Source: Candidatus Saccharimonadota bacterium (GTDB lineage Bacteria; Pseudomonadota; Gammaproteobacteria; Enterobacterales; Enterobacteriaceae). From it: a DNA stretch of 32,000 nt. Positions 4,754 through 30,709 of this stretch are shown in pieces; position 1 is the first letter of the stretch; each line of letters starts with the position of its first letter. The position numbers and the translations under genes are program-made. A model generated the notes under the pieces. It saw nothing but the letters and a program-made list of their open reading frames with translations. It was not told the DNA's origin and searched no databases. The DNA lies in the NCBI GenBank assembly GCA_000217635.1, contig CP001817.1:150001-182000 (forward strand). The letters are read 5' to 3'.

Positions 4754-5936
4754 TTACATAGTAAAATATTTATGATACCAAAAACGAACAATTTTTTTAG
4801 ATTCTTGGATTTTTTCAATATTAACACGTAAAGAGAATAATTCTAATGCTTGTAAAAAATTTATATTTTTATGATGCTTTTTGTATTACAATGATACTGT
4901 TTTTCTATTTCTTTTTGTAGTTTCCATATTTTAGAGATAGTAATTAATATATTTTTGGGTATTCCTATGGATATAGCAGATGATTTAAGTATTTTTCGGA
5001 CAGATATAGAATATGCATTTGAAAATCCCATTATTTTTTTTTAGTTAATTTTTTTATTTTATCTAATAATGGATACCATAGTATGGAAGCAAATAAAAAA
5101 GATGCGTGGCATATTTTTTTGTTTTTATATTTTTATCAGTTTTTTTTAAAGCTTTTTTTATAATATATTTAAAAAATATTTTGTTTTTTTATTTAAAATT
5201 TTAAATAAATAAGGTAATAATGGTTTTATTAAAGAATATTTTTTTAATTTTTTTATATGTTAAATAACCAAATCCACAACAAAATAGTTTAATAGACTCG
5301 TTAAATAAACGTGCAGATGGAACATAATGTAATAGATTAGCTAATCTTGATATAGGTTCTGATGTTTTTTTAGCAATGTTCATATTTAATTGTACTGAAA
5401 AACGAATAACGCGTAACATACGCACAGGGTCTTCTCGATATCTTGTTTCTGCATCGCCAATTAAACAAATAATTTTTCTTTTAATATCATTTACACCTCC
5501 TACATAATCGCGAATTCCAAAATCTTTTATATTGTAATATAAAGCATTAATTGTAAGATCTCGTCGATATGCATCTTCTTCAATTTTTCCAAATGTATTA
5601 TCTTGTAATAATATTCCGTTTATTATTTTTTTTTGTTTTGTACGAAAAGTAGATACTTCAATAATTTCTGCTCGAAATATTAAATGAGCAATGATAAAGC
5701 GGCGTCCAATTAATCTACAGTTTTTAAAAAATCTTTTAATATCATCAGGCGTAGCGTTAGTTGCAATATCAAAGTCTTTTGGGTTTTTTTCCTAATATTA
5801 GATCTCTTACGCTTCCGCCAACTAGATATGCTTCATAACCTAATTTATTTAACCTATATATTACTTTCATAGAATTTTTACTAATTTTTATGGGAGATAT
5901 TATAGTTTTTTTTATAATTAGAGTCATATTTTTCAT
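4754..5936 (-). pseudogene. pcnB: poly(A) polymerase I remnant with multiple frameshifts and two in-frame stops
   Basis: Hand translation in four frame segments is collinear with E. coli PcnB.
- Segment 1 from ATG 5936: [53 protein letters not shown], then out of frame (TGA 5769-5771).
- Segment 2: [27 protein letters not shown]...[26 protein letters not shown]...[10 protein letters not shown], with in-frame TAA at 5201-5203 and 5189-5191.
- Segment 3: HASFLFASILWYPLLDKIKK...IGIPKNILITISKIWKLQ.
- Segment 4: HHKNINFLQALELFSLRVNIEKIQ..., stop at 4754-4756.
It lies downstream of dksA as in E. coli (dksA-gluQ-pcnB). Confidence 0.85.
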
Positions 5937-7799: not shown

Positions 7800-7991
7800 T
7801 TTTTTTAAAAAAAAATCTATTGAATTATATTATATATTATTTTTTATAATAATGTAAAATTTTTATATCTTGAATAAGATAACAAATAAAAAAAATTAAA
7901 AATATTTATAAAATTTATTTATTTTTTCGTAAAGATAGTGTTTTATGCTGCATTAAAATATTTATTAAGTTTAATTGAATGAGATTTTAAT

Positions 7992-10587
7992 ATGTTTAAA
8001 AAAATTATTGATAAATTTTTTTTAAATTATAGTAGTCGTATTTTAAAAAAAAATAAATTATTTTGTAAAAAAAATTAATTATTTAGAAAAAGATTTGGTT
8101 AGTTTATCGGATGCAGAATTAAAAAAAAAAACAATAATATTTAAAAATCGATTAAAAAAAGGAGAAACTTTAGAACAATTATTACCAGAAGCATTTGCTG
8201 TAGTACGAGAAGCTAGTAAACGGGTTTTTGGGATGCGTCATTTTGATGTTCAATTGTTAGGAGGTATCGTATTACATCAAAACTCGATTGCAGAGATGCG
8301 TACAGGAGAAGGTAAAACTTTAACTGCAACTTTACCGGTATATTTAAATGCGTTAGAAGGAAAAGGTGTACATGTTGTTACAATGAATGATTATTTAGCT
8401 AAAAGAGATGGTAATAAAAATCGTATTTTATTTAATTTTTTAGGATTAACTGTTGGTATAAATATAAGTAAGATGTCTAAAGCAGAAAAAAGAAAAGCTT
8501 ATTCTTCTGATATTACATATGGAACTAATCATGAATATGGTTTTGATTATTTACGCGATAATATGGTTTTTTGTAGCTCTAAAAAGGTTCAAAGAGAATT
8601 ATACTATGCATTAGTTGATGAAGTGGATTCAATTTTAATAGATGAAGCCCGCACTCCATTAATTATTTCTGGTCCTGTAGATCATAGTAATAGTATATAT
8701 ATTCATATTAATAAATTAGTACGTAAATTAACTTTACAAATTAAAGATCGTGATAAAAAAAAATATATACCAGGAGACTTTTTTATCGATCGAAAAGCGC
8801 GTCAGGTATATTTAACTGAAAAAGGTATGGATACTATAGAGAAATTATTAGTTTCATATAACTTCTTAACTTCTCAGGAATCATTATACTCACCTAAAAA
8901 TATTGTATTTATTCATCATATTTTGTTAGCACTTAAAGCACATTATATATTTTTTAATAATATTGATTATATTATAAAAATAAAAAATATTATGATTGTT
9001 GATGAACATACAGGAAGAATTATGCCTGGTCGTCGTTGGTCAGAGGGTTTACATCAGGCTATTGAAGCAAAAGAGCATGTTTTAATTCAACAAGAAAACC
9101 AGACTTTAGCTTCTATTACACTGCAAAATTACTTTCGTTTATATAAAAAATTATCCGGTATGACCGGGACTGCTATCACCGAAGAATTTGAATTTCGTTC
9201 GATATATAATTTAGAAACTGTGGTTATTCCTACAAATAAACCGATGATTCGTAATGATATGTCGGATGTAATATATCTTTCTTGTACAGAAAAATATAAG
9301 GCAATTGTTGCTGCAATTAAAGATTGTGTTTTGCGTAAACAACCGGTTTTAATAGGTACTGTTTCAATTGAAAAATCTGAATTATTATCTTCTTTTTTAA
9401 AAAAAAATTTTATTAAACATAATATTTTAAATGCAAAATTTCATGCCCAAGAAGCAGATATTATTGCGCAAGCTGGTCAATTAGGCGCTGTAACTATTGC
9501 AACTAATATGGCGGGAAGAGGAACAGATATTGTTTTGGGAGGAAATTTTGATTCTTCTTATATACATGAAAAAAATAATATTAATATAAAAAAAAGGAAT
9601 TTTTTAAAAAAACGCTGGAAAAAAAATAATGCATTGGTGATTCGTAGTGGTGGTTTACATATTATAGGTACTGAAAGGCATGAATCACGTCGTATTGATA
9701 ATCAGTTAAGAGGTAGAGCAGGAAGGCAAGGTGATCCTGGTTCTTCGCGTTTTTATTTATCTTTGGAAGATCCGTTACTTCAATTATTTTTATCAGATAA
9801 AATGATTTATTTTATGAAATTATTTGGTATTAAAAAGGAAGAATCAATTGAACATCCGTGGATTAATACAGCAATAGAGAATGCGCAAAAAAAAGTAGAA
9901 AACCAAAATTTTGATGTTCGTAAAAGTTTGTTAGAATATGATAATATTATTAATGAGCAACGAAAGGTTATTTATCATGAACGAAATAAAATTATTGATT
10001 CTAGCAATTTGAGTTCGTATATTCTTGTTATTTTCTCTAATCAAATAAAAAATTTTTTAAAAAAAAATATAATTCGAAATGATTTAGATTTTAATATTTT
10101 AAAAAAATTTAAAAATTTGTTTTTTTTAGTTTATCTCGTAAAAAAATTTTTGCAAAATAAATTATTATTCTCAAATAATATTAATCATATTAATAATTAT
10201 ATTGTAAAAATTATCCAAAAAGATTATATACAACATACTTCTCAGATATCTATTAAATACAGCATGATAATTGAAAAATATGTTATATTACAAATATTTG
10301 ATCAATTTTGGAGGGATCATTTAAATTCTCTTGATTTTTTAAGGAAAAATATTTATCTTCGTAGTTATGCTCAAAAAGATCCTACACAAGAATATAAAAG
10401 AGAATCTTTTAGTATGTTTGCTTCAATGTTAGAATCTATTAAAAAATTTATAATAAAAAGTTTATTAAATATTTTTTATAAAAATTTTGAAACACATAAA
10501 TATATTTTAATAAAATTTATTGATTCTAATGATTTTAAATCTTTACGTTATTTTATTACTAAACTTTGTGAAACTATTATAATATAA
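7992..10587 (+). CDS. secA: preprotein translocase ATPase SecA, interrupted near the 5' end by a 1-nt frameshift (uninterrupted ORF 8095..10587)
   Basis: The 830-aa ORF matches E. coli SecA from residue ~36 ([10 protein letters not shown]...[27 protein letters not shown]...[14 protein letters not shown]...[19 protein letters not shown]...[10 protein letters not shown]...[30 protein letters not shown]). The conserved N-terminus [20 protein letters not shown] (E. coli [20 protein letters not shown]) is encoded from ATG 7992 in a different frame that stops at TAA 8076-8078. Confidence 0.88.
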
Positions 10588-18852: not shown

Positions 18853-18910
18853 AATTTTTTTTCCTTATTATTTTTTAGGAATAACTATTACATATAGAAT
18901 AATATGTTAT

Positions 18911-20150
18911 TTAAAATTCTTTTTTTAACCAATTGTATATTTGTCTAATCCAATTATGTAATATTCCTATTTTCTTTGGAATGATTTTTTTTATTTTTTT
19001 TCCATATTGTAATAATCCAATAATTGTTGAGTATTCTGGTTGTGTAATATTTTCTGGAAGATCTGGTAGATTTGGTTTTTTAAGGATTACATTGGTTTGA
19101 AATATTTTTGTTGCATATAGTGGTAATGATTTGATTTGCGATGCTCCACCCGTTAAAACAATTCCCATTAACAATTTATTTTTATTTTTTATTTCTAAAT
19201 TGAATTCACATTTTAATAGTTCATGATTAACTAATTGTAATAATTCAGAATATCTTGATTCAATAACTTCTACTAATTTTGCATGTTGTAAATTTTTTAT
19301 TTTTTCGCCATTTTTTTTAAAGATATCTATATTATTTTTGATATTACGTAAATCACTAATAACTGATCCGTATTTTTTCTTTATAAATTCAGCATCATAA
19401 TATGATAAAGAAAAAGCATAAGCGATATCTTTAGTAACTATATCGCCTCCATAAGGAATAACAGCACTATGCCGTAATGATCCTTGTGTATAAATACTGA
19501 TATTAATTATTTCTCCGCCGATATCTACTAAGCAAACCCCTAATTTTTCTTCTTCTGTTAAAATTGCTTCACTTGCAGCTAATCCAGAAAAAATAATTTT
19601 TGATACTTTTACCCCGCATTTTTCAATTGCTTTAGTTATATTTTTTTCAAGACTATAACAAGAAGTTATTAAATGTACATTAGCTTGCATACGTACACCG
19701 GATAGTCCTAATGGATTTTTTATATTTGATTGCTGGTCAATTGAAAATTCTTGCGGAATAATATGTGTTATGAATCGGTCATTCCTTATTTTTATTGATT
19801 GCGCAGTTTTAATAGCATTTTTAATATCGTCACGAGTAACTTCATCTTGTTTAATTGGAACTACGCCAATTTCATTTAAACATTCTATATCTTTATGTGA
19901 AATTGATACATATACTGATGTAATCTTATATTTTGCAACTTTTTCAGCTTCATAAATAGATTTTTTAATACATGAGATTAATAATTCTAAATTATTGATA
20001 TGACCATTTTCTATCCCATACGATTGATTTTGACTAAATCCAATAATTTCTATATTTTGATTATTTAGAATAGCTCCAATTAATACTATAATTTTTTTTT
20101 GACCCTATTTCCAAACCAACTACTATATTTTTATTATTTGAAATACTCAT
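18911..20150 (-). CDS. ftsA: cell division protein FtsA, interrupted by a 1-nt frameshift in an A9 tract at codon ~19
   Basis: ATG at 20150 gives MSISNNKNIVVGLEIGSKK (E. coli ...RKLVVGLEIGTAK). After the tract (T9 on + strand, 20092-20100) the protein continues in the +1 frame: IIVLIGAILNNQNIEIIGFSQ...NPLGLSGVRMQANVHLITS...LVDIGGE...VLTGGASQI...NWLKKEF. This is collinear with E. coli FtsA to the C-terminal amphipathic helix. The ORF track only shows 18911..19690, from an internal Met. Confidence 0.88.
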
Positions 20151-21548
20151 GTTTAACCTGTATTTATGGTTATTCTATTTTTTTATGATTATTTAAGGAG
20201 ATCCTTATTATATAGGATTTTTTGATTTATAATGTAATCTAGATTTTCTATTAAATTATTATGTTTATTAATCATATTATTTGATGTGTTTTATAATATA
20301 AAAAAATAGGTATTGTAATTAATAAAAATAATTTTGTAAGTACATAAAATATGTATTTATTTTTTTTATTGCTCTATTGTAGAGATTGATTCTTTATTTT
20401 AATATAAAAATTTTAAATAAAATTATAGATATTTTTTTTAAATCGATTTATTGTTATATAATTTAGTATTATTATATGCATAATTAAGTATTTATTATGA
20501 TAAATAAAATTTATTATCAGGATAGATTTTTATTTCTTATGTTTGAAAACATTAAATTCTTATATATTTTATAGATATTTAATAGATAAAATATAAAAAA
20601 AATTAATTTTTAAAAGATATCAAACATTAATAAAAAGTAAATTAGGATATATTTTGATTTTTAAAAAATATGTTAAAAAAATTTTTTATTTAATAATATT
20701 AAATATATTATATAAATAATGAACTGGATATAATATTAACTATGGTTTTATTTTTTATTTGTTCTTATATAGAATTAAATATATTTTTAATTTGAAAAAT
20801 TACGATTTTTAATAAAAAAAATTTTAAATTTGATTAATTATTTATAATTTATAGTTGCAATAATAATAAATTATTTTATATGACTTTATAATGTTATATC
20901 TCTATTTGAGATAATATGATAATAATGAATTATTTATTTTTTAGATATTTTTATTTGTAAAAGAGTATAAGTGGTTTTATAGTTTTATTATTAAAGATAA
21001 TGCATCACTTTTTTTCTTTTTACTTTTATTTATTAACTGCAACACTTATTATTAATAAGTATAGCTAATAATATTAAATTATTATACATGAATAATGTAA
21101 AAGGTTTTAATTCAATTGTATAAAATTTTAAAAATGATTTTTTTTTGTTTAAATTTTTTTTTAGAATTTTATAACATTAAAAAAGATATTATTTATTTTA
21201 ATAAATATTAAATTTAATAACTTTTAATATTAAAAATATAATTGTAAAAATATATGTTGTATTATTATTAAATAATCAATATTGTTTTTTAAAAAAGATA
21301 CATGCTATATCTTATATAATATAATGTAATATTTTATATGTAAAAAAATATTAAGTTTTAAAATAAAAATTTTAAAAAATTTTTTATTACACCAATATAG
21401 ATGTTTATTAATTTTATTAATTTTAAATTATTATATATATATTTTTAAATGATAAAAATTTAATGTCATTTAAAGTATTAGAAAATTTTTTATTTTTATT
21501 TATATAATATTATTTTTAATATGTATTATATTAATAAAATATATAGAA
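20151..21548. other. 1.4-kb non-coding spacer where the ftsL-ftsI-murE-murF-mraY-murD-ftsW-murG-murC-ddlB-ftsQ block sits in E. coli
   Basis: It is flanked by ftsA (start 20150) and rsmH (stop 21549) on the same strand. There is no ORF in the track, G/C is almost absent, and I found no recognisable remnant peptide in any frame. Confidence 0.7.
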
Positions 21549-22469
21549 TTATCTTATTTCACATATACGTAATATTGCGCTGCGTGCACGAGGATTTTTT
21601 TGAATTTCAGATATATTTGGTTTAATACGTTTAATAAAACGTATTTTTTTTTTTATTTTTCTTATTTGCAATTCAGTAATAGGAAGTTTTTTAGGTATAT
21701 TTGGATAATTACTGTAATTCTTAATAAAGTTTTTTACAATCCTATCTTCAATAGAATGAAAACTAATAATAGCAATTTTTGATCCGGAATGTAATATGTT
21801 AATAATAATTTTTAATATTTTATGTAATTCATTTATTTCTTGGTTAATATATATTCGAAAAGCTTGAAATGTTCTCGTAGCTGGATGTTTAAATTTGTCA
21901 TATTTTGGGATTGATTTTTTTATGATTTGAACTAACTCTAACGTGCTTGTTATGGTTTTTTTTTTTATTTGTAATATGATGGCTCGGGATATTTTTTTTG
22001 CGTATTTTTCTTCGCCAAAATTTTTTATTACCTGTTCTATTGTTTTTTGGTTTGTTTTTTTTAACCATTGACTAACTGATATTCCAGATTTAGGGTTCAT
22101 ACGCATATCTAAAGGTCCATCATTCATAAATGAAAATCCTCGGATACTAGAATTTAACTGTATTGAAGAAATACCTAAATCTAATAATATTCCATCTATT
22201 TTATCTCTATTTTTTTCTTTTTTTAATATTTTTTCAATATTAGAAAATTTACCTAAAAATATTTTAAATCGCGAATCTTTTATTTTTTTTCCGATTTTTA
22301 TAGATTGTGGGTCTTGATCAATACTATATAACTTTCCATTAACCCCTAATTCTTGAAGAATTGCTTTTGAATGACCACCACCTCCAAATGTACAATCAAC
22401 ATATGTACCGTCTTTTTTTATTTTTAAGTATTGTATGATTTCTTTTGTTAAAACAGGTTTATGAATCAT
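21549..22469 (-). CDS. rsmH: 16S rRNA (cytosine1402-N4)-methyltransferase
   Basis: 306-aa ORF. HKPVLTKE, DCTFGGGGHS, LLDLGISS, GPLDMRM, FKHPATRTFQAFRIYIN, SFHSIEDRIVK and NPRARSAILRI. Collinear with E. coli RsmH (313 aa). Contains two in-frame A11 tracts (T11 on + strand at 21644-21654 and 21956-21966). Confidence 0.93.
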   Translation of the reverse strand: MIHKPVLTKEIIQYLKIKKDGTYVDCTFGGGGHSKAILQELGVNGKLYSIDQDPQSIKIGKKIKDSRFKIFLGKFSNIEKILKKEKNRDKIDGILLDLGISSIQLNSSIRGFSFMNDGPLDMRMNPKSGISVSQWLKKTNQKTIEQVIKNFGEEKYAKKISRAIILQIKKKTITSTLELVQIIKKSIPKYDKFKHPATRTFQAFRIYINQEINELHKILKIIINILHSGSKIAIISFHSIEDRIVKNFIKNYSNYPNIPKKLPITELQIRKIKKKIRFIKRIKPNISEIQKNPRARSAILRICEIR

Positions 22470-25153: not shown

Positions 25154-25942
25154 TTAATTTTCTCGGAGCAATAAATTAAGTTCGGTTTTTTTTAATGTTT
25201 TATAATCTACTTTTTTAACAATAACAGCGCAATATAAGTTAATTTTTTTATCCGTTGAGGGAAGAGATCCAGGTACTACTACTGATCCATTTGGAACTTT
25301 TCCATAAAAAATATTATTTGTTTCGCGATCATAAATTTTTGTACTTTGTCCGATGTACACGCCCATAGAGATGACAGATCCTTGACCAATTATTACACCT
25401 TCTACTATTTCTGAGCGCGCACCAATAAAACAATTATCTTCAATAATTGTAGGATTATTTTGTAGAGGTTCTAATACACCACCTATACCAACTCCTCCGG
25501 ATAAATGAACATTTTTTCCGATTTGAGCGCAAGATCCAACAGTTGCCCATGTGTCAATCATGCTATTTTTTCCAATATGAGCTCCGATATTAACAAAACT
25601 AGGCATAAGTATAACATTTTTATCAATAAATGAACCATATCTAACGGTTGCATATGGTATAATACGAATATTATCATTAATAAATTGATTTTCATCATAT
25701 TTTTTATATTTTAAAGGTATTTTGTCATAATATGAGTTTTCGGCGCATTTGAATATTTTATTTTTTTTTGAGTATAAATATAATAATACGGATTTTTTAA
25801 TCCATTGGTGAGTTATCCAGGTTTTATTAATTTTTTCGGATACTTTAATTTTACCAAAATTTAATAAATCAATAGCTTTATTTATTATTTTTTTATCTTT
25901 AGCTTGAATAATATAGTTTTTTATTTTATTTTTTTTGATCAT
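25154..25942 (-). CDS. dapD: tetrahydrodipicolinate N-succinyltransferase
   Basis: 262-aa [16 protein letters not shown] and hexapeptide-repeat core [51 protein letters not shown] are nearly identical to E. coli DapD. Confidence 0.95.
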
Positions 25943-26117
25943 AAATATAATCTATATTTTTTTTAGTTCTAACATGTTAATATATAACCTTTCTAAAATG
26001 ATAAACAGTTTAAATCTATTTATTTTTTTGTTAATTTTTATACTATGATATAATTTATTTGGTTTAATATTAGAATTAGATCAATTTTTATAAAAAGTTT
26101 AAAAATATTTGAATGAC

Positions 26118-28175: not shown

Positions 28176-28982
28176 ATGGATCATTTATTTTTGTTAATAA
28201 AAGAATTAAGAAAAAAAACTGGATCAGGATTAATAGATTGTAAAAATGCTTTGATACATACTCGTGGTGATATTAATAAAGCAATTGATTATTTAAGAAG
28301 CTCTGGAACTTGTTTAGCATTAAATAAACTTTCTAATAAAACAACAGAAGGTGGTGTATTTGTTTGTATACATAATACTACAGGTTTTATATTAGAATTA
28401 AATGCAGAAACAGATTTTGTTACACATACTAATGAATTTAAAAAATTTGGTCAAGAATTAGTAAATTATGCAAGTAAACATGATATTGATAATGTAAATG
28501 TTTTAAAAAAAATATTTAAAAAAGAAATAGTTTCTTTAATTACTAAAGTGTCAGAAAATATTAAAATTAATAGAATTAAAAAAATCTTTGGAAATATAAT
28601 AATTTCGTATATTCATATGAATAAAATTGGTGTTCTTGTCGCTTCTTCTAATTTAGAATTATCATTGAAACAAAAAGAATGTATGAAAAATATTGCTATG
28701 CATATTGTTGCATTAAATCCAATATGTTTAACGCAAAAAGAAATTCCACAAAATATTATAGATCGTGAATTATCTATTCAAACGGAATTAGCGAAAAAAA
28801 CAGGTAAATCTGCTTTATTGTTACAAAGAATTATAGATGGTCGTATGAAAAAATTTATTAATAATAATACATTATTAAATCAAAAATTTGTTATGGATAT
28901 TAAAAAAAATATTCGAGAATTTTTAGAAGAAAATAAGGTTTCACTTAGTGGTTTTATTAGACTACAAGTAGGTACAGCATAA
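28176..28982 (+). CDS. tsf: elongation factor Ts
   Basis: The ORF track starts at GTG 28167. I prefer ATG 28176 (MDHLFLLIKELRKKTGSGLIDCKNAL vs E. coli [27 protein letters not shown]) because AAGGGTG lies just upstream and the N-terminal length fits better. Ends GFIRLQVGTA, about 20 residues shorter than E. coli. Confidence 0.9.
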   Translation: MDHLFLLIKELRKKTGSGLIDCKNALIHTRGDINKAIDYLRSSGTCLALNKLSNKTTEGGVFVCIHNTTGFILELNAETDFVTHTNEFKKFGQELVNYASKHDIDNVNVLKKIFKKEIVSLITKVSENIKINRIKKIFGNIIISYIHMNKIGVLVASSNLELSLKQKECMKNIAMHIVALNPICLTQKEIPQNIIDRELSIQTELAKKTGKSALLLQRIIDGRMKKFINNNTLLNQKFVMDIKKNIREFLEENKVSLSGFIRLQVGTA

Positions 28983-29739
28983 TTCTTCATTAATTGTTTA
29001 ATAATTTGAAGTGATTTATTAAAGTTGGTTTTATTTTAATTTATAGTATTTAAGGTAGTTTTATAAAAATAAGTATTACTATTAATTTTAAAAAATTTAA
29101 TTGATTAATAAAATATAATTTTTAATATATTAAATAAATTAATTATTTTATGTAATATTTTTAAATATCAATATATTTATTTGATTATTATAATAATTTC
29201 TAAGAGTTATAAAAATTAAAATAGAATATATACATACTTTTAATTATTAATTGAATATTTATAAATAATGATTTTTTTTTCTCATTTTTTAAATGGTATT
29301 TTAATAGATCAAAAATAATAGATTTTATTGAAAAGATTAATTGATGATTATATTTATATAATTTTTATTATATTAGTTGTTTACTATTCATAATTAATAA
29401 TATGATTTTTATATATTTAATATTAAAATGGGTTTTTATAATGATTTATAATATTTTTATGAAAATTACTTAGTTTTATTCTTATTGTAAGAAATATTAT
29501 TTTATTGATTAATATAAAATATTAATAAAAAATATACTTTTAAAGAACATAATATATAAGTATATTAAAGTGATTAAATAAATGTTTTTAATATCTTTAA
29601 GTAATTTTTTTTCTAAATATATTAATGTAATATCTGTTATTATTGGATTATATTTAATATATAAAAAAAATAAAAATTTTTTTTAAGTTCTTATTAATTT
29701 TATAATTAATTCTAATACTTATATAAGGATTTCTAAAAA
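28983..29739. other. 757-bp non-coding spacer occupying the position (and roughly the length) of pyrH
   Basis: In E. coli the order is rpsB-tsf-pyrH-frr and pyrH is ~0.73 kb. Here tsf and frr are separated by 757 nt with no ORF, almost no G/C and no recognisable UMP-kinase motif in any frame. Confidence 0.6.
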
Positions 29740-30296
29740 ATGATTAATTCATTAGTAGAATATGTTCGTGTTTCCATGAATAAATGTGTTATAGTTTTTC
29801 AAGATGATTTAAACAATATACGTGCTAATCATGTTACGCCATCATTATTAAAAAATATTTATATTGAATATTTTGGTGTTAAGACTTCGTTGTTCCAATT
29901 ATCTAATATTGTTGTAGAAGACAATAATACATTAAAAATAACATTATTTGACGAATCTATAAAAAATACAGTGGAAAAAGCTATTATAAATTCAAATTTA
30001 GGTTTTAATCCAATTTCGATAGATTCTATTATTCGTATTCCTGTTCCTATTTTATCTGAGGATAGAAGAAGAGAATTAGTAAAAATGATTAAAAAAGATT
30101 CTGAACATACCCGGGTTACAATAAGAAATATTAGGCGAGATGCGCATGAAAAGTTAAAAATTTTTTTAAAAAATAAAAAATAACACAAGATTTAATGCGA
30201 GATTATAAAAAAGAAATTCAAGATTGTACCGATATGTTTATTAAAAAAATTAATAAAATAGTTGCTCTCAAAGAAAATGAGTTAATGAATGTTTAA
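29740..30296 (+). CDS. frr: ribosome recycling factor, with a 1-nt frameshift in an A6 tract (uninterrupted ORF 29740..30183)
   Basis: The 147-aa ORF is collinear with E. coli RRF residues 1-147 ([29 protein letters not shown]...[18 protein letters not shown]...[12 protein letters not shown]). The -1 frame from 30180 gives [38 protein letters not shown] then a stop (TAA 30294-30296), collinear with E. coli [38 protein letters not shown]. Confidence 0.9.
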
Positions 30297-30709
30297 TAAA
30301 ATATATTTCATTTTTTTAATATTATTCAATTTAATTATTTAATATTATAATATTTTTTTAAAAATTATTAATTTTTAATTATTTGTATAATACTATAAAT
30401 ATATTAATTTTTTTAAACTCAGATATTGTAACTATTATATTATATTATTACGGTATTTTTTTTTGAATTTATTTGTCTTTATAATTTAATAGAGAATCTT
30501 TATTTCAATATCCATTAAAAATAGAAACATTTAACTAATAAAATACATTCAGAAAGATAATATTTTTTAAACTGTGCTAATTTACTTTTTAATTAATATT
30601 AAATAATATATAATTTTAAAATTAAAGGTGCTATAAAAAATATTTTATTAAAATTTGTAATGATATTTTTATTTTTTCGATTAATTATAAATAAATAAGT
30701 ATAATACAT

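What the first reader, a model, noticed from the sequence alone, without database searches (positions are those of the whole stretch)
7992..8131. The SecA N-terminus is encoded in a different frame from the ATPase body, with two candidate A tracts for the switch and an in-frame A11 just downstream
ATG 7992 opens [28 protein letters not shown] then a stop (TAA 8076-8078), matching E. coli [20 protein letters not shown]. The long ORF frame is closed upstream by TAA 8044-8046 and has no ATG before TTG 8095.

Removing one A from either A9 (8045-8053) or A8 (8067-8074) gives a protein exactly collinear with E. coli SecA through LSD at residues 38-40. Homology does not let me choose between the two tracts.

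Starting at TTG 8095 would drop about 35 N-terminal residues, including the amphipathic N-terminal helix known to be needed for SecA membrane binding. About 50 nt downstream an A11 run (8121-8131) is in frame, so the 5' end of this essential mRNA carries three slippage-prone tracts within 90 nt.
Basis: partly seen in the sequence, partly recalled or inferred. Interest (0 to 1): 0.7.

Follow-up and report, generated by a model that had tools for sequence, protein, structure and literature searches.

The report
secA frameshift: probable homopolymer sequencing error
In this deposited Buchnera genome the first 20 codons of the essential secA gene are out of frame because a run of A's is one base too long, but at least five other conserved genes nearby carry the same kind of one-base defect, so it is most likely a sequencing error.

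Summary
ATG 7992 opens a 28-codon ORF that is the true SecA N-terminus. The window comes from Buchnera aphidicola of Cinara tujafilina (CP001817.1), whose deposited SecA is the truncated TTG-8095 protein.

In a five-sequence DNA alignment the only gap is in the A9 tract (8045-8053), where relatives have in-frame A8 or A7. The A8 and A11 tracts are ancestral and in frame.

The lesion is not special to secA. Among 16 window genes aligned to Illumina-era relatives, every frame-breaking indel is unique to this assembly:
- ftsA, ftsZ, ilvI, aceE and dapD are affected, and frr also needs a one-base repair.
- Several lesions lie in tracts of only 2-7 nt.
- One-base repairs restore highly conserved termini.

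Other Buchnera genomes have 1-18 such lesions in the whole genome.

Best explanation: a homopolymer miscall in what I infer is a pyrosequencing-era assembly (about 0.75). Main rival: a real A8-to-A9 insertion rescued by transcriptional slippage, a known Buchnera phenomenon (about 0.18). Low interest.

The parts
7981..7985 (+). GAGAT, a weak Shine-Dalgarno-like element 7 nt upstream of ATG 7992
   Evidence: Invariant in all five aligned secA 5' regions. This supports ATG 7992 as the conserved start. Its role as a ribosome-binding site is inferred.
7992..8053 (+). secA codons 1-20 in frame 0 ([20 protein letters not shown]), running into the A9 tract
   Evidence: It matches 15/20 residues of the SecA N-terminus of the C. 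confinis Buchnera and extends the Pfam SecA_DEAD match to profile position 3.
8045..8053 (+). A9 tract, the single site where the frame changes; the expected length is A8
   Evidence: It is the only gap in the five-sequence 5' alignment. LT667503 and the ENA contig have A8, SRR21069242 has A7 and SRR33594963 has GAATAAA, all in frame.
8044..8046 (+). TAA that closes the body frame upstream of the tract
8067..8074 (+). A8 tract, in frame in relatives and not the lesion
   Evidence: The ENA relative has A8 and LT667503 has A7 in the same column, both inside intact genes. Repairing here gives NKLFC, which does not match relatives, and scores 3 bits lower in Pfam.
8076..8078 (+). TAA ending the 28-codon frame-0 ORF
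8095..8097 (+). TTG, the deposited start of the 830-aa SecA (AEH39723.1 / WP_013877860.1)
   Evidence: In relatives this codon is an internal CTT or TTT (Leu/Phe), so it is not a conserved start.
8054..10587 (+). secA body in the +1 frame (residues 21-864 of the repaired protein, plus the stop codon)
   Evidence: It is 79% identical to intact 867-aa SecA proteins of the nearest relatives.
8121..8131 (+). A11 tract, in frame, encoding the conserved ELKKKT
   Evidence: It is A10 or A11 in all four relatives. It is ancestral and not part of the lesion.

Best explanation
The extra A at 8045-8053 is most likely a homopolymer-length miscall in the deposited assembly of Buchnera aphidicola BCt (CP001817.1). 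I infer that this genome was assembled from 454 pyrosequencing reads without homopolymer polishing. On this reading the organism has A8 at that position and makes an ordinary SecA of about 864 residues from ATG 7992. The split gene and the TTG-8095 gene model would then be products of the sequencing and annotation pipeline.

Shown: the position and uniqueness of the indel, the many parallel lesions in the same assembly, and the conservation of the out-of-frame segments.

Inferred: the sequencing platform, and the claim that the reads would show A8.
For: 1. The indel is a +1 in a homopolymer and is unique to this assembly. Four relatives have in-frame A8, A7 or an interrupted tract.

2. Among 16 window genes aligned to relatives, every indel that is not a multiple of 3 is BCt-only:
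- secA, +1, A9
- ftsA, +1, A9 at 20092-20100
- ftsZ, -1, A7 to A6 at about 17741
- ilvI, -1, TTT to TT at about 23239
- aceE, -1, A6 to A5 at about 13738
- dapD, -1, A9 to A8, plus a +1 C
In addition, frr needs a +1 in an A6 tract. Relatives have none. The C. confinis genome is Illumina-sequenced. The Logan contigs are automatic assemblies; their platform was not checked.

3. That is 6 of 16 genes. Published rates are 1-18 homopolymeric frameshifts per whole Buchnera genome, with 3 in the sister strain BCc. P(6 or more of 16) is at most 2e-5.

4. Several lesions lie in tracts of 2-7 nt. Transcription slippage falls off exponentially with run length, so rescue there would be inefficient. They nevertheless hit indispensable parts such as the FtsZ C-terminal peptide.

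5. One-base repairs restore strongly conserved termini: FtsZ ...[14 protein letters not shown], IlvI ...[16 protein letters not shown], and RRF at 185 aa. No decay has followed any of the supposed frameshifts.

6. DNA of C. tujafilina from the same laboratory was sequenced on 454 FLX and Titanium, and the co-resident Serratia assembly had to be polished with Illumina reads. The laboratory's contemporaneous 454 genome used Sanger sequencing only for contig joins.

7. The deposited annotation simply truncates SecA, FtsA and Frr.
Against: - No reads were available, so the tract length itself is unverified.
- The BCt genome paper (PMC3127723) could not be read. The 454-only claim therefore rests on related papers and on my memory.
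- Real homopolymeric frameshifts exist in every Buchnera genome, and an A9 tract is long enough for appreciable slippage.
- pcnB in the same window is broken by about 8 indels, which shows that real homopolymer indels accumulate in this lineage.
- The +1 C in dapD is not a typical homopolymer miscall.
Confidence: 0.75

Rival explanations
1. The A8-to-A9 insertion is real in the Buchnera chromosome. Full-length SecA is made from the fraction of mRNAs in which RNA polymerase slips on the A9 tract and drops one A (or adds two). Ribosome sliding on the AAA-AAA run may add a smaller contribution. This would be the known endosymbiont rescue of frameshifts at poly(A) tracts.
For: - The lesion is a single indel in a long A tract in an otherwise intact gene, which is the pattern described for Buchnera and Blochmannia. 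In those cases 12-50% of transcripts are corrected.
- Essential genes such as dnaX, dnaG and pth carry such frameshifts in Blochmannia vafer.
- Buchnera RNA polymerase makes both insertions and deletions in runs, rising exponentially with run length up to 11 nt.
- ftsA carries the same A9 lesion at codon 17-19.
Against: - The frameshift is not conserved in any relative, whereas conservation is the criterion used to argue for rescue.
- Rescue here needs a deletion, and 151 of 157 insertions but only 16 of 57 deletions fell in homopolymer runs.
- The CirSeq study found no transcription error that restored a reading frame.
- The parallel lesions in short tracts of ftsZ, ilvI, aceE and frr cannot be explained this way and point to a common technical cause.
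Confidence: 0.18
2. The insertion is real and is not rescued. BCt makes an N-terminally truncated SecA from TTG 8095 (or from a rare ATT/ATA start at 8053-8076), as in the deposited annotation. The 28-residue N-terminal peptide is either useless or acts in trans.
For: - GenBank and RefSeq carry the 830-aa model.
- BCc and BCt have a very reduced envelope and transporter set, and BCt is reported to lack secG. Demands on SecA may therefore be relaxed.
Against: - The 34 codons upstream of TTG 8095 are as conserved as the rest of the gene, contain no other defect and keep a conserved ATG and a GAGAT element.
- TTG 8095 is an internal Leu/Phe codon in relatives.
- The amphipathic N-terminus inserts into acidic lipids and primes SecA for high-affinity SecYEG binding.
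- All 15 nearest SecA homologues are full length at 863-867 aa.
Confidence: 0.04
3. The site is a programmed +1 ribosomal frameshift of the prfB or IS-element type, used to regulate SecA.
For: A frame-0 stop at 8076 lies shortly after slippery A runs.
Against: - The arrangement is not conserved in any relative.
- There is no stimulatory RNA structure: minimum free energy -8.1 kcal/mol, z = +0.49 against shuffles.
- No Shine-Dalgarno-like stimulator lies next to the site.
- The codon before the stop is AAT, which cannot re-pair in the +1 frame (read directly from the sequence).
Confidence: 0.01

Closest known systems
Homopolymer over- and under-calls in pyrosequencing (454) assemblies of AT-rich genomes
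   Same: - One-base length errors in or next to A/T runs.
- Both signs occur.
- The errors are scattered over many conserved genes of one assembly and absent from Illumina-era relatives.
- Automatic gene models are truncated at the nearest start or stop.
   Different: I could not inspect reads or the original methods. One lesion, the +1 C in dapD, is not a homopolymer change.
[quoted passage not shown] 2008; Wernegreen et al. 2010)
   Same: A single indel in a long poly(A) tract of an otherwise intact gene in a Buchnera genome. If the insertion is real, rescue by transcriptional slippage is mechanistically plausible for A9.
   Different: The published cases are conserved among strains or populations and were confirmed on DNA and cDNA. 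Here the frameshift is unique to one assembly, it needs a deletion rather than the commoner insertion, and it is accompanied by lesions in tracts too short to slip.
Ordinary SecA of Cinara-associated Buchnera (863-867 aa)
   Same: The repaired gene is collinear from residue 1. It shares 79% identity, the synteny pcnB-dksA-truA-secA-aceE, the conserved start context and the A11 tract encoding ELKKKT.
   Different: The only difference is the extra A at 8045-8053.

Membership tests
Sequencing or assembly homopolymer miscall | The indel is +/-1 inside or adjacent to a homopolymer | tested here: met
   A9 against A8 or A7 in relatives.
Sequencing or assembly homopolymer miscall | Many similar lesions occur in other conserved genes of the same assembly and none in independently sequenced relatives | tested here: met
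   Six of 16 genes carry BCt-only frame-breaking indels, and relatives carry none. frr shows the same defect. P is at most 2e-5 against published Buchnera rates.
Sequencing or assembly homopolymer miscall | Out-of-frame segments show undiminished protein-level conservation | tested here: met
   SecA residues 1-40 match 30/40. The repaired FtsZ, IlvI, AceE and RRF termini match relatives or E. coli.
Sequencing or assembly homopolymer miscall | Raw reads or an independent platform give a different tract length | not testable with these tools
   No second assembly of this strain is in the collections. Each protein cluster has one member on one contig, and the repaired SecA is absent.
Sequencing or assembly homopolymer miscall | The assembly derives from an error-prone homopolymer platform without polishing | tested here: inconclusive
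   The BCt paper is not held. The same laboratory sequenced C. tujafilina DNA on 454 FLX and Titanium and needed Illumina polishing for the Serratia genome. Its sister project was 454 plus Sanger for contig joins only.
Poly(A)-tract frameshift rescued by transcriptional slippage (Tamas 2008 type) | A single indel in a long (about 9 nt or more) A/T tract in an otherwise intact gene | tested here: met
   The tract is A9, and the rest of secA is an intact ORF 79% identical to relatives.
Poly(A)-tract frameshift rescued by transcriptional slippage (Tamas 2008 type) | The frameshift is conserved across related strains or populations | tested here: not met
   All four close relatives and all 15 nearest SecA proteins are in frame.
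Poly(A)-tract frameshift rescued by transcriptional slippage (Tamas 2008 type) | A mixed mRNA pool contains frame-corrected transcripts, and full-length protein is made | not testable with these tools
   This needs cDNA amplicon sequencing and proteomics.
Programmed +1 ribosomal frameshift (prfB-like) | A conserved shift site with a stop or hungry codon, a re-pairing P-site tRNA and a stimulator | tested here: not met
   The site is not conserved, there is no structure, and AAT-TAA cannot re-pair in the +1 frame.
SecA preprotein translocase ATPase | SecA_DEAD, PP-bind, P-loop and Wing/Scaffold domains in order, at full profile coverage | tested here: met
   In Pfam, the repaired protein covers SecA_DEAD positions 3-290. 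The TTG ORF covers only 32-290, with the other domains complete.

The most novel reading that the evidence does not exclude
All the BCt-only one-base indels are real: secA, ftsA, ftsZ, ilvI, aceE, dapD and frr. This Buchnera would then keep roughly a third of its core genes, including the translocase motor, the division proteins and the ribosome recycling factor, in a frameshifted state. It would make functional protein only through unusually error-prone transcription or translation, even at tracts of 5-7 nt. A narrower version, in which only the two A9 lesions in secA and ftsA are real and slippage-rescued, is covered by the first rival explanation at about 0.18.
Probability: 0.04. Interest if true: 0.75.

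Novelty: not a real feature. Interest (0 to 1): 0.12.

Why it matters
**If it is an artefact.** The value is practical.
- CP001817.1 and its GenBank, RefSeq and UniProt proteins are truncated models: SecA 830 aa, FtsA 259 aa, FtsZ 373 aa, Frr 147 aa, and IlvI and AceE with wrong C-termini.
- These models can mislead comparative studies of gene loss in Buchnera.
- This genome has served as a scaffolding reference.

**If the A9 is real.** secA and ftsA would be new examples of essential genes that depend on transcriptional slippage. That would be an incremental addition to a phenomenon known since 2008.

Tried and rejected
- **Exact look-ups of window proteins.** Neither is on record, so no independent assembly of this strain could be compared.
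- **Exact look-up of the repaired SecA.** It is absent from the collection.
- **Original papers.** The BCt genome paper and Tamas 2008 are not held.
- **FtsA N-terminal protein search.** It found only distant Buchnera. The FtsZ search was needed to reach syntenic DNA.
- **Promoter scan.** Hits equal chance in this AT-rich DNA.
- **RNA fold around the tracts.** No structure was found.
- **Rfam and tRNA scans of the window.** Nothing was found.
- **Repair at the A8 tract.** Rejected by the DNA alignment, by residues 21-25 and by a 3-bit lower Pfam score.
- **The three-tract cluster as a signal.** Rejected, because it is not significant after correction and the tracts are ancestral.

Full report
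**1. Observation**

The coordinates and sequence statements are all correct.
- ATG 7992 opens [28 protein letters not shown] and stops at TAA 8076-8078.
- The long ORF is in the +1 frame and is closed upstream by TAA 8044-8046.
- The first canonical start in that frame is TTG 8095, giving 830 aa that end at 10587.
- The tracts are A9 (8045-8053), A8 (8067-8074) and A11 (8121-8131).
- Removing one A from either A9 or A8 gives an 864-residue protein collinear with E. coli SecA.

**2. Source and annotation**

The window has 22.6% G+C. The 830-aa ORF is identical to AEH39723.1 / WP_013877860.1, the SecA of Buchnera aphidicola from Cinara tujafilina, on a 444,925-bp genome. A 2024 dataset lists that genome as CP001817.1. 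The deposited model is therefore the TTG-8095 truncation. All 15 nearest SecA homologues are full length, at 863-867 aa.

**3. Where the frame changes**

I fetched DNA for four close relatives:
- an ENA contig (L081);
- two Logan assemblies (L082 and L083);
- the complete Buchnera genome of Cinara confinis, LT667503.1 (L084).

Synteny pcnB-dksA-truA-secA-aceE is shared. In a 220-nt alignment of the secA 5' ends there is exactly one internal gap, and it lies in the A9 tract:

| Sequence | Tract and flanks |
|---|---|
| BCt (this window) | TTTT-A9-TAAAT |
| C. confinis and ENA contig | A8 |
| SRR21069242 | A7 followed by T |
| SRR33594963 | GAATAAA |

All four relatives are in frame.

The A8 tract at 8067-8074 is A8 or A7 and in frame in the two nearest relatives (interrupted in the other two), and the A11 is A10 or A11 in all four. 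Both are therefore ancestral.

At the protein level the A9 repair gives [14 protein letters not shown], against INFFL, LNFFV and LNVFV in relatives. The A8 repair gives NKLFC. Pfam SecA_DEAD scores are 416.8 bits for the A9 repair, 413.8 for the A8 repair and 397.5 for the TTG ORF, whose match begins only at profile position 32.

ATG 7992 and an upstream GAGAT are invariant across the five sequences. TTG 8095 is an internal CTT or TTT codon in relatives.

**4. The lesion is not specific to secA**

While annotating the window I found several other ORFs that match only part of their family profiles. I then aligned 16 window genes, gene by gene, to the relatives. Every indel that is not a multiple of three is unique to BCt:

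| Gene | Change in BCt | Position |
|---|---|---|
| secA | +1, A8 to A9 | 8045 |
| ftsA | +1, expected A8, found A9 | 20092-20100, codons 17-19 |
| ftsZ | -1, A7 to A6 | about 17741 |
| ilvI | -1, TTT to TT after an A8 | about 23239 |
| aceE | -1, A6 to A5 | about 13738 |
| dapD | -1, A9 to A8, plus a +1 C | 25964 and 25937 |

The ftsZ lesion puts the conserved C-terminal [10 protein letters not shown] out of frame. In addition, frr needs one more A in the A6 at 30175-30180. The relatives show no such lesions over the same genes.

One-base repairs restore conserved ends:
- FtsA becomes 412 aa.
- FtsZ ends ...[14 protein letters not shown].
- IlvI ends ...[16 protein letters not shown].
- AceE ends ...FKKFNIFSDKINPRLG...
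- RRF becomes 185 aa.

GenBank holds the truncated versions: FtsA at 259 aa and Frr at 147 aa.

**5. Base rates**

Degnan et al. 2011 counted 1-18 homopolymeric frameshifts per whole Buchnera genome, with 3 in the sister strain from C. cedri. Six of 16 genes here has P of at most 2e-5 under those rates.

Transcription slippage in Buchnera rises exponentially with run length, and insertions dominate in runs. Lesions in tracts of 2-7 nt, such as those in ftsZ, ilvI, aceE and frr, could therefore not be rescued efficiently. Yet the affected segments show no decay.

**6. Platform**

I could not read the BCt genome paper, so the following is indirect.
- The same laboratory's C. tujafilina DNA was sequenced on 454 FLX and Titanium.
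- The Serratia assembly from that material was polished with Illumina reads obtained a year later.
- The laboratory's contemporaneous 454 genome used Sanger sequencing only for contig joins.
- The C. confinis genome is Illumina-sequenced.

That BCt is an unpolished 454 assembly is an inference from these papers and from my memory.

**7. Explanation**

The most economical reading is that the A9 is a homopolymer miscall. On that reading the real gene has A8 and encodes a normal SecA starting at ATG 7992 (confidence about 0.75).

The main rival is a real A8-to-A9 insertion rescued by transcriptional slippage (about 0.18).
- This is a well-documented endosymbiont phenomenon, with 12-50% of transcripts corrected.
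- It is routinely assumed when annotating Buchnera genomes.
- It fits the A9 length.
- It fails the conservation criterion, it needs the rarer deletion slip, and it cannot explain the short-tract lesions.

A truly truncated SecA (about 0.04) conflicts with three facts: the upstream codons are intact and conserved, the start context is conserved, and the amphipathic N-terminus has a known role in lipid and SecYEG binding.

Programmed ribosomal frameshifting (about 0.01) has no conserved site and no stimulatory structure.

**8. Comparison and novelty**

As a mechanism the finding resembles the poly(A) rescue described by Tamas et al. 2008. It does not meet that class's conservation criterion, and its expression evidence cannot be tested here. 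It meets every testable criterion of an assembly artefact.

I file it as not a real feature, with low interest. The practical consequence is that several BCt gene models in public databases are probably wrong. The decisive test is simple: map any Illumina reads of C. tujafilina Buchnera to these sites.

Noticed in passing
window 18908-20150 (- strand); A9 at 20092-20100: ftsA has the same architecture as secA. ATG 20150 opens MSISNNKNIVVGLEIGSKK, and the body is then in another frame. Deleting one A of the A9 gives an intact 412-aa FtsA. Relatives have TA7 or CA7 in frame. GenBank annotates only a 259-aa C-terminal fragment (AEH39729.1).
   Followed up: yes
window about 17741 (- strand), ftsZ 3' end: An A6 where relatives have A7 or AAAGAAA shifts the last 12 codons. 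The perfectly conserved C-terminal peptide [12 protein letters not shown] is out of frame, and the deposited FtsZ is 373 aa against 384-385 aa in relatives.
   Followed up: yes
window about 23239 (- strand), ilvI 3' end: BCt has TT where relatives have TTT, immediately after an A8. The last 37 or so residues (...[25 protein letters not shown]) are out of frame, and a one-base repair restores them.
   Followed up: yes
window about 13738 (+ strand), aceE 3' end: BCt has A5 where relatives have A6 or A7, which changes the last 10 or so residues. Repair gives ...FKKFNIFSDKINPRLG, matching C. confinis.
   Followed up: yes
window 25937-25975 (- strand), dapD 5' end: Two BCt-only indels lie 27 nt apart: A9 to A8, then an extra C before an A8. 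Together they put 9 codons out of frame and create a stop. The ORF then restarts at ATG 25942. The C insertion is not a homopolymer change, so this case is ambiguous.
   Followed up: partly
window 29740-30330 (+ strand), frr; A6 at 30175-30180: The frr ORF stops at 147 aa, matching profile positions 3-137 of 176. The last 38 residues ([38 protein letters not shown]) are in another frame. Adding one A gives a 185-aa RRF collinear with E. coli. No relative DNA was available for this gene.
   Followed up: partly
window 4760-5927 (- strand): pcnB (poly(A) polymerase I) is broken by about 8 one- or two-base indels, mostly in A tracts of 5-9 nt. Residues 48-227 are still about 90% identical to intact orthologues. 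It looks like a young real pseudogene, possibly compounded by miscalls, and no ORF over 74 aa remains.
   Followed up: partly
window 28982-29740: The gap between tsf and frr, where pyrH is expected, has no ORF and no recognisable coding frame. pyrH appears fully decayed, which fits the reported loss of pyrimidine metabolism in Cinara Buchnera.
   Followed up: no
window 20150-21549: A 1.4-kb non-coding gap lies between ftsA and rsmH, where the mur/fts cluster sits in larger Buchnera genomes. Relatives have a similar gap of about 1.1 kb. It was not examined for remnants.
   Followed up: no
L001 (JBPBPJ010000072.1, labelled Janthinobacterium lividum MAG): This 50.9-kb contig encodes SecA at 65% identity and FtsZ (P0137) at 80% identity to BCt, typical of Cinara Buchnera. 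It is almost certainly a mis-binned Buchnera contig.
   Followed up: no
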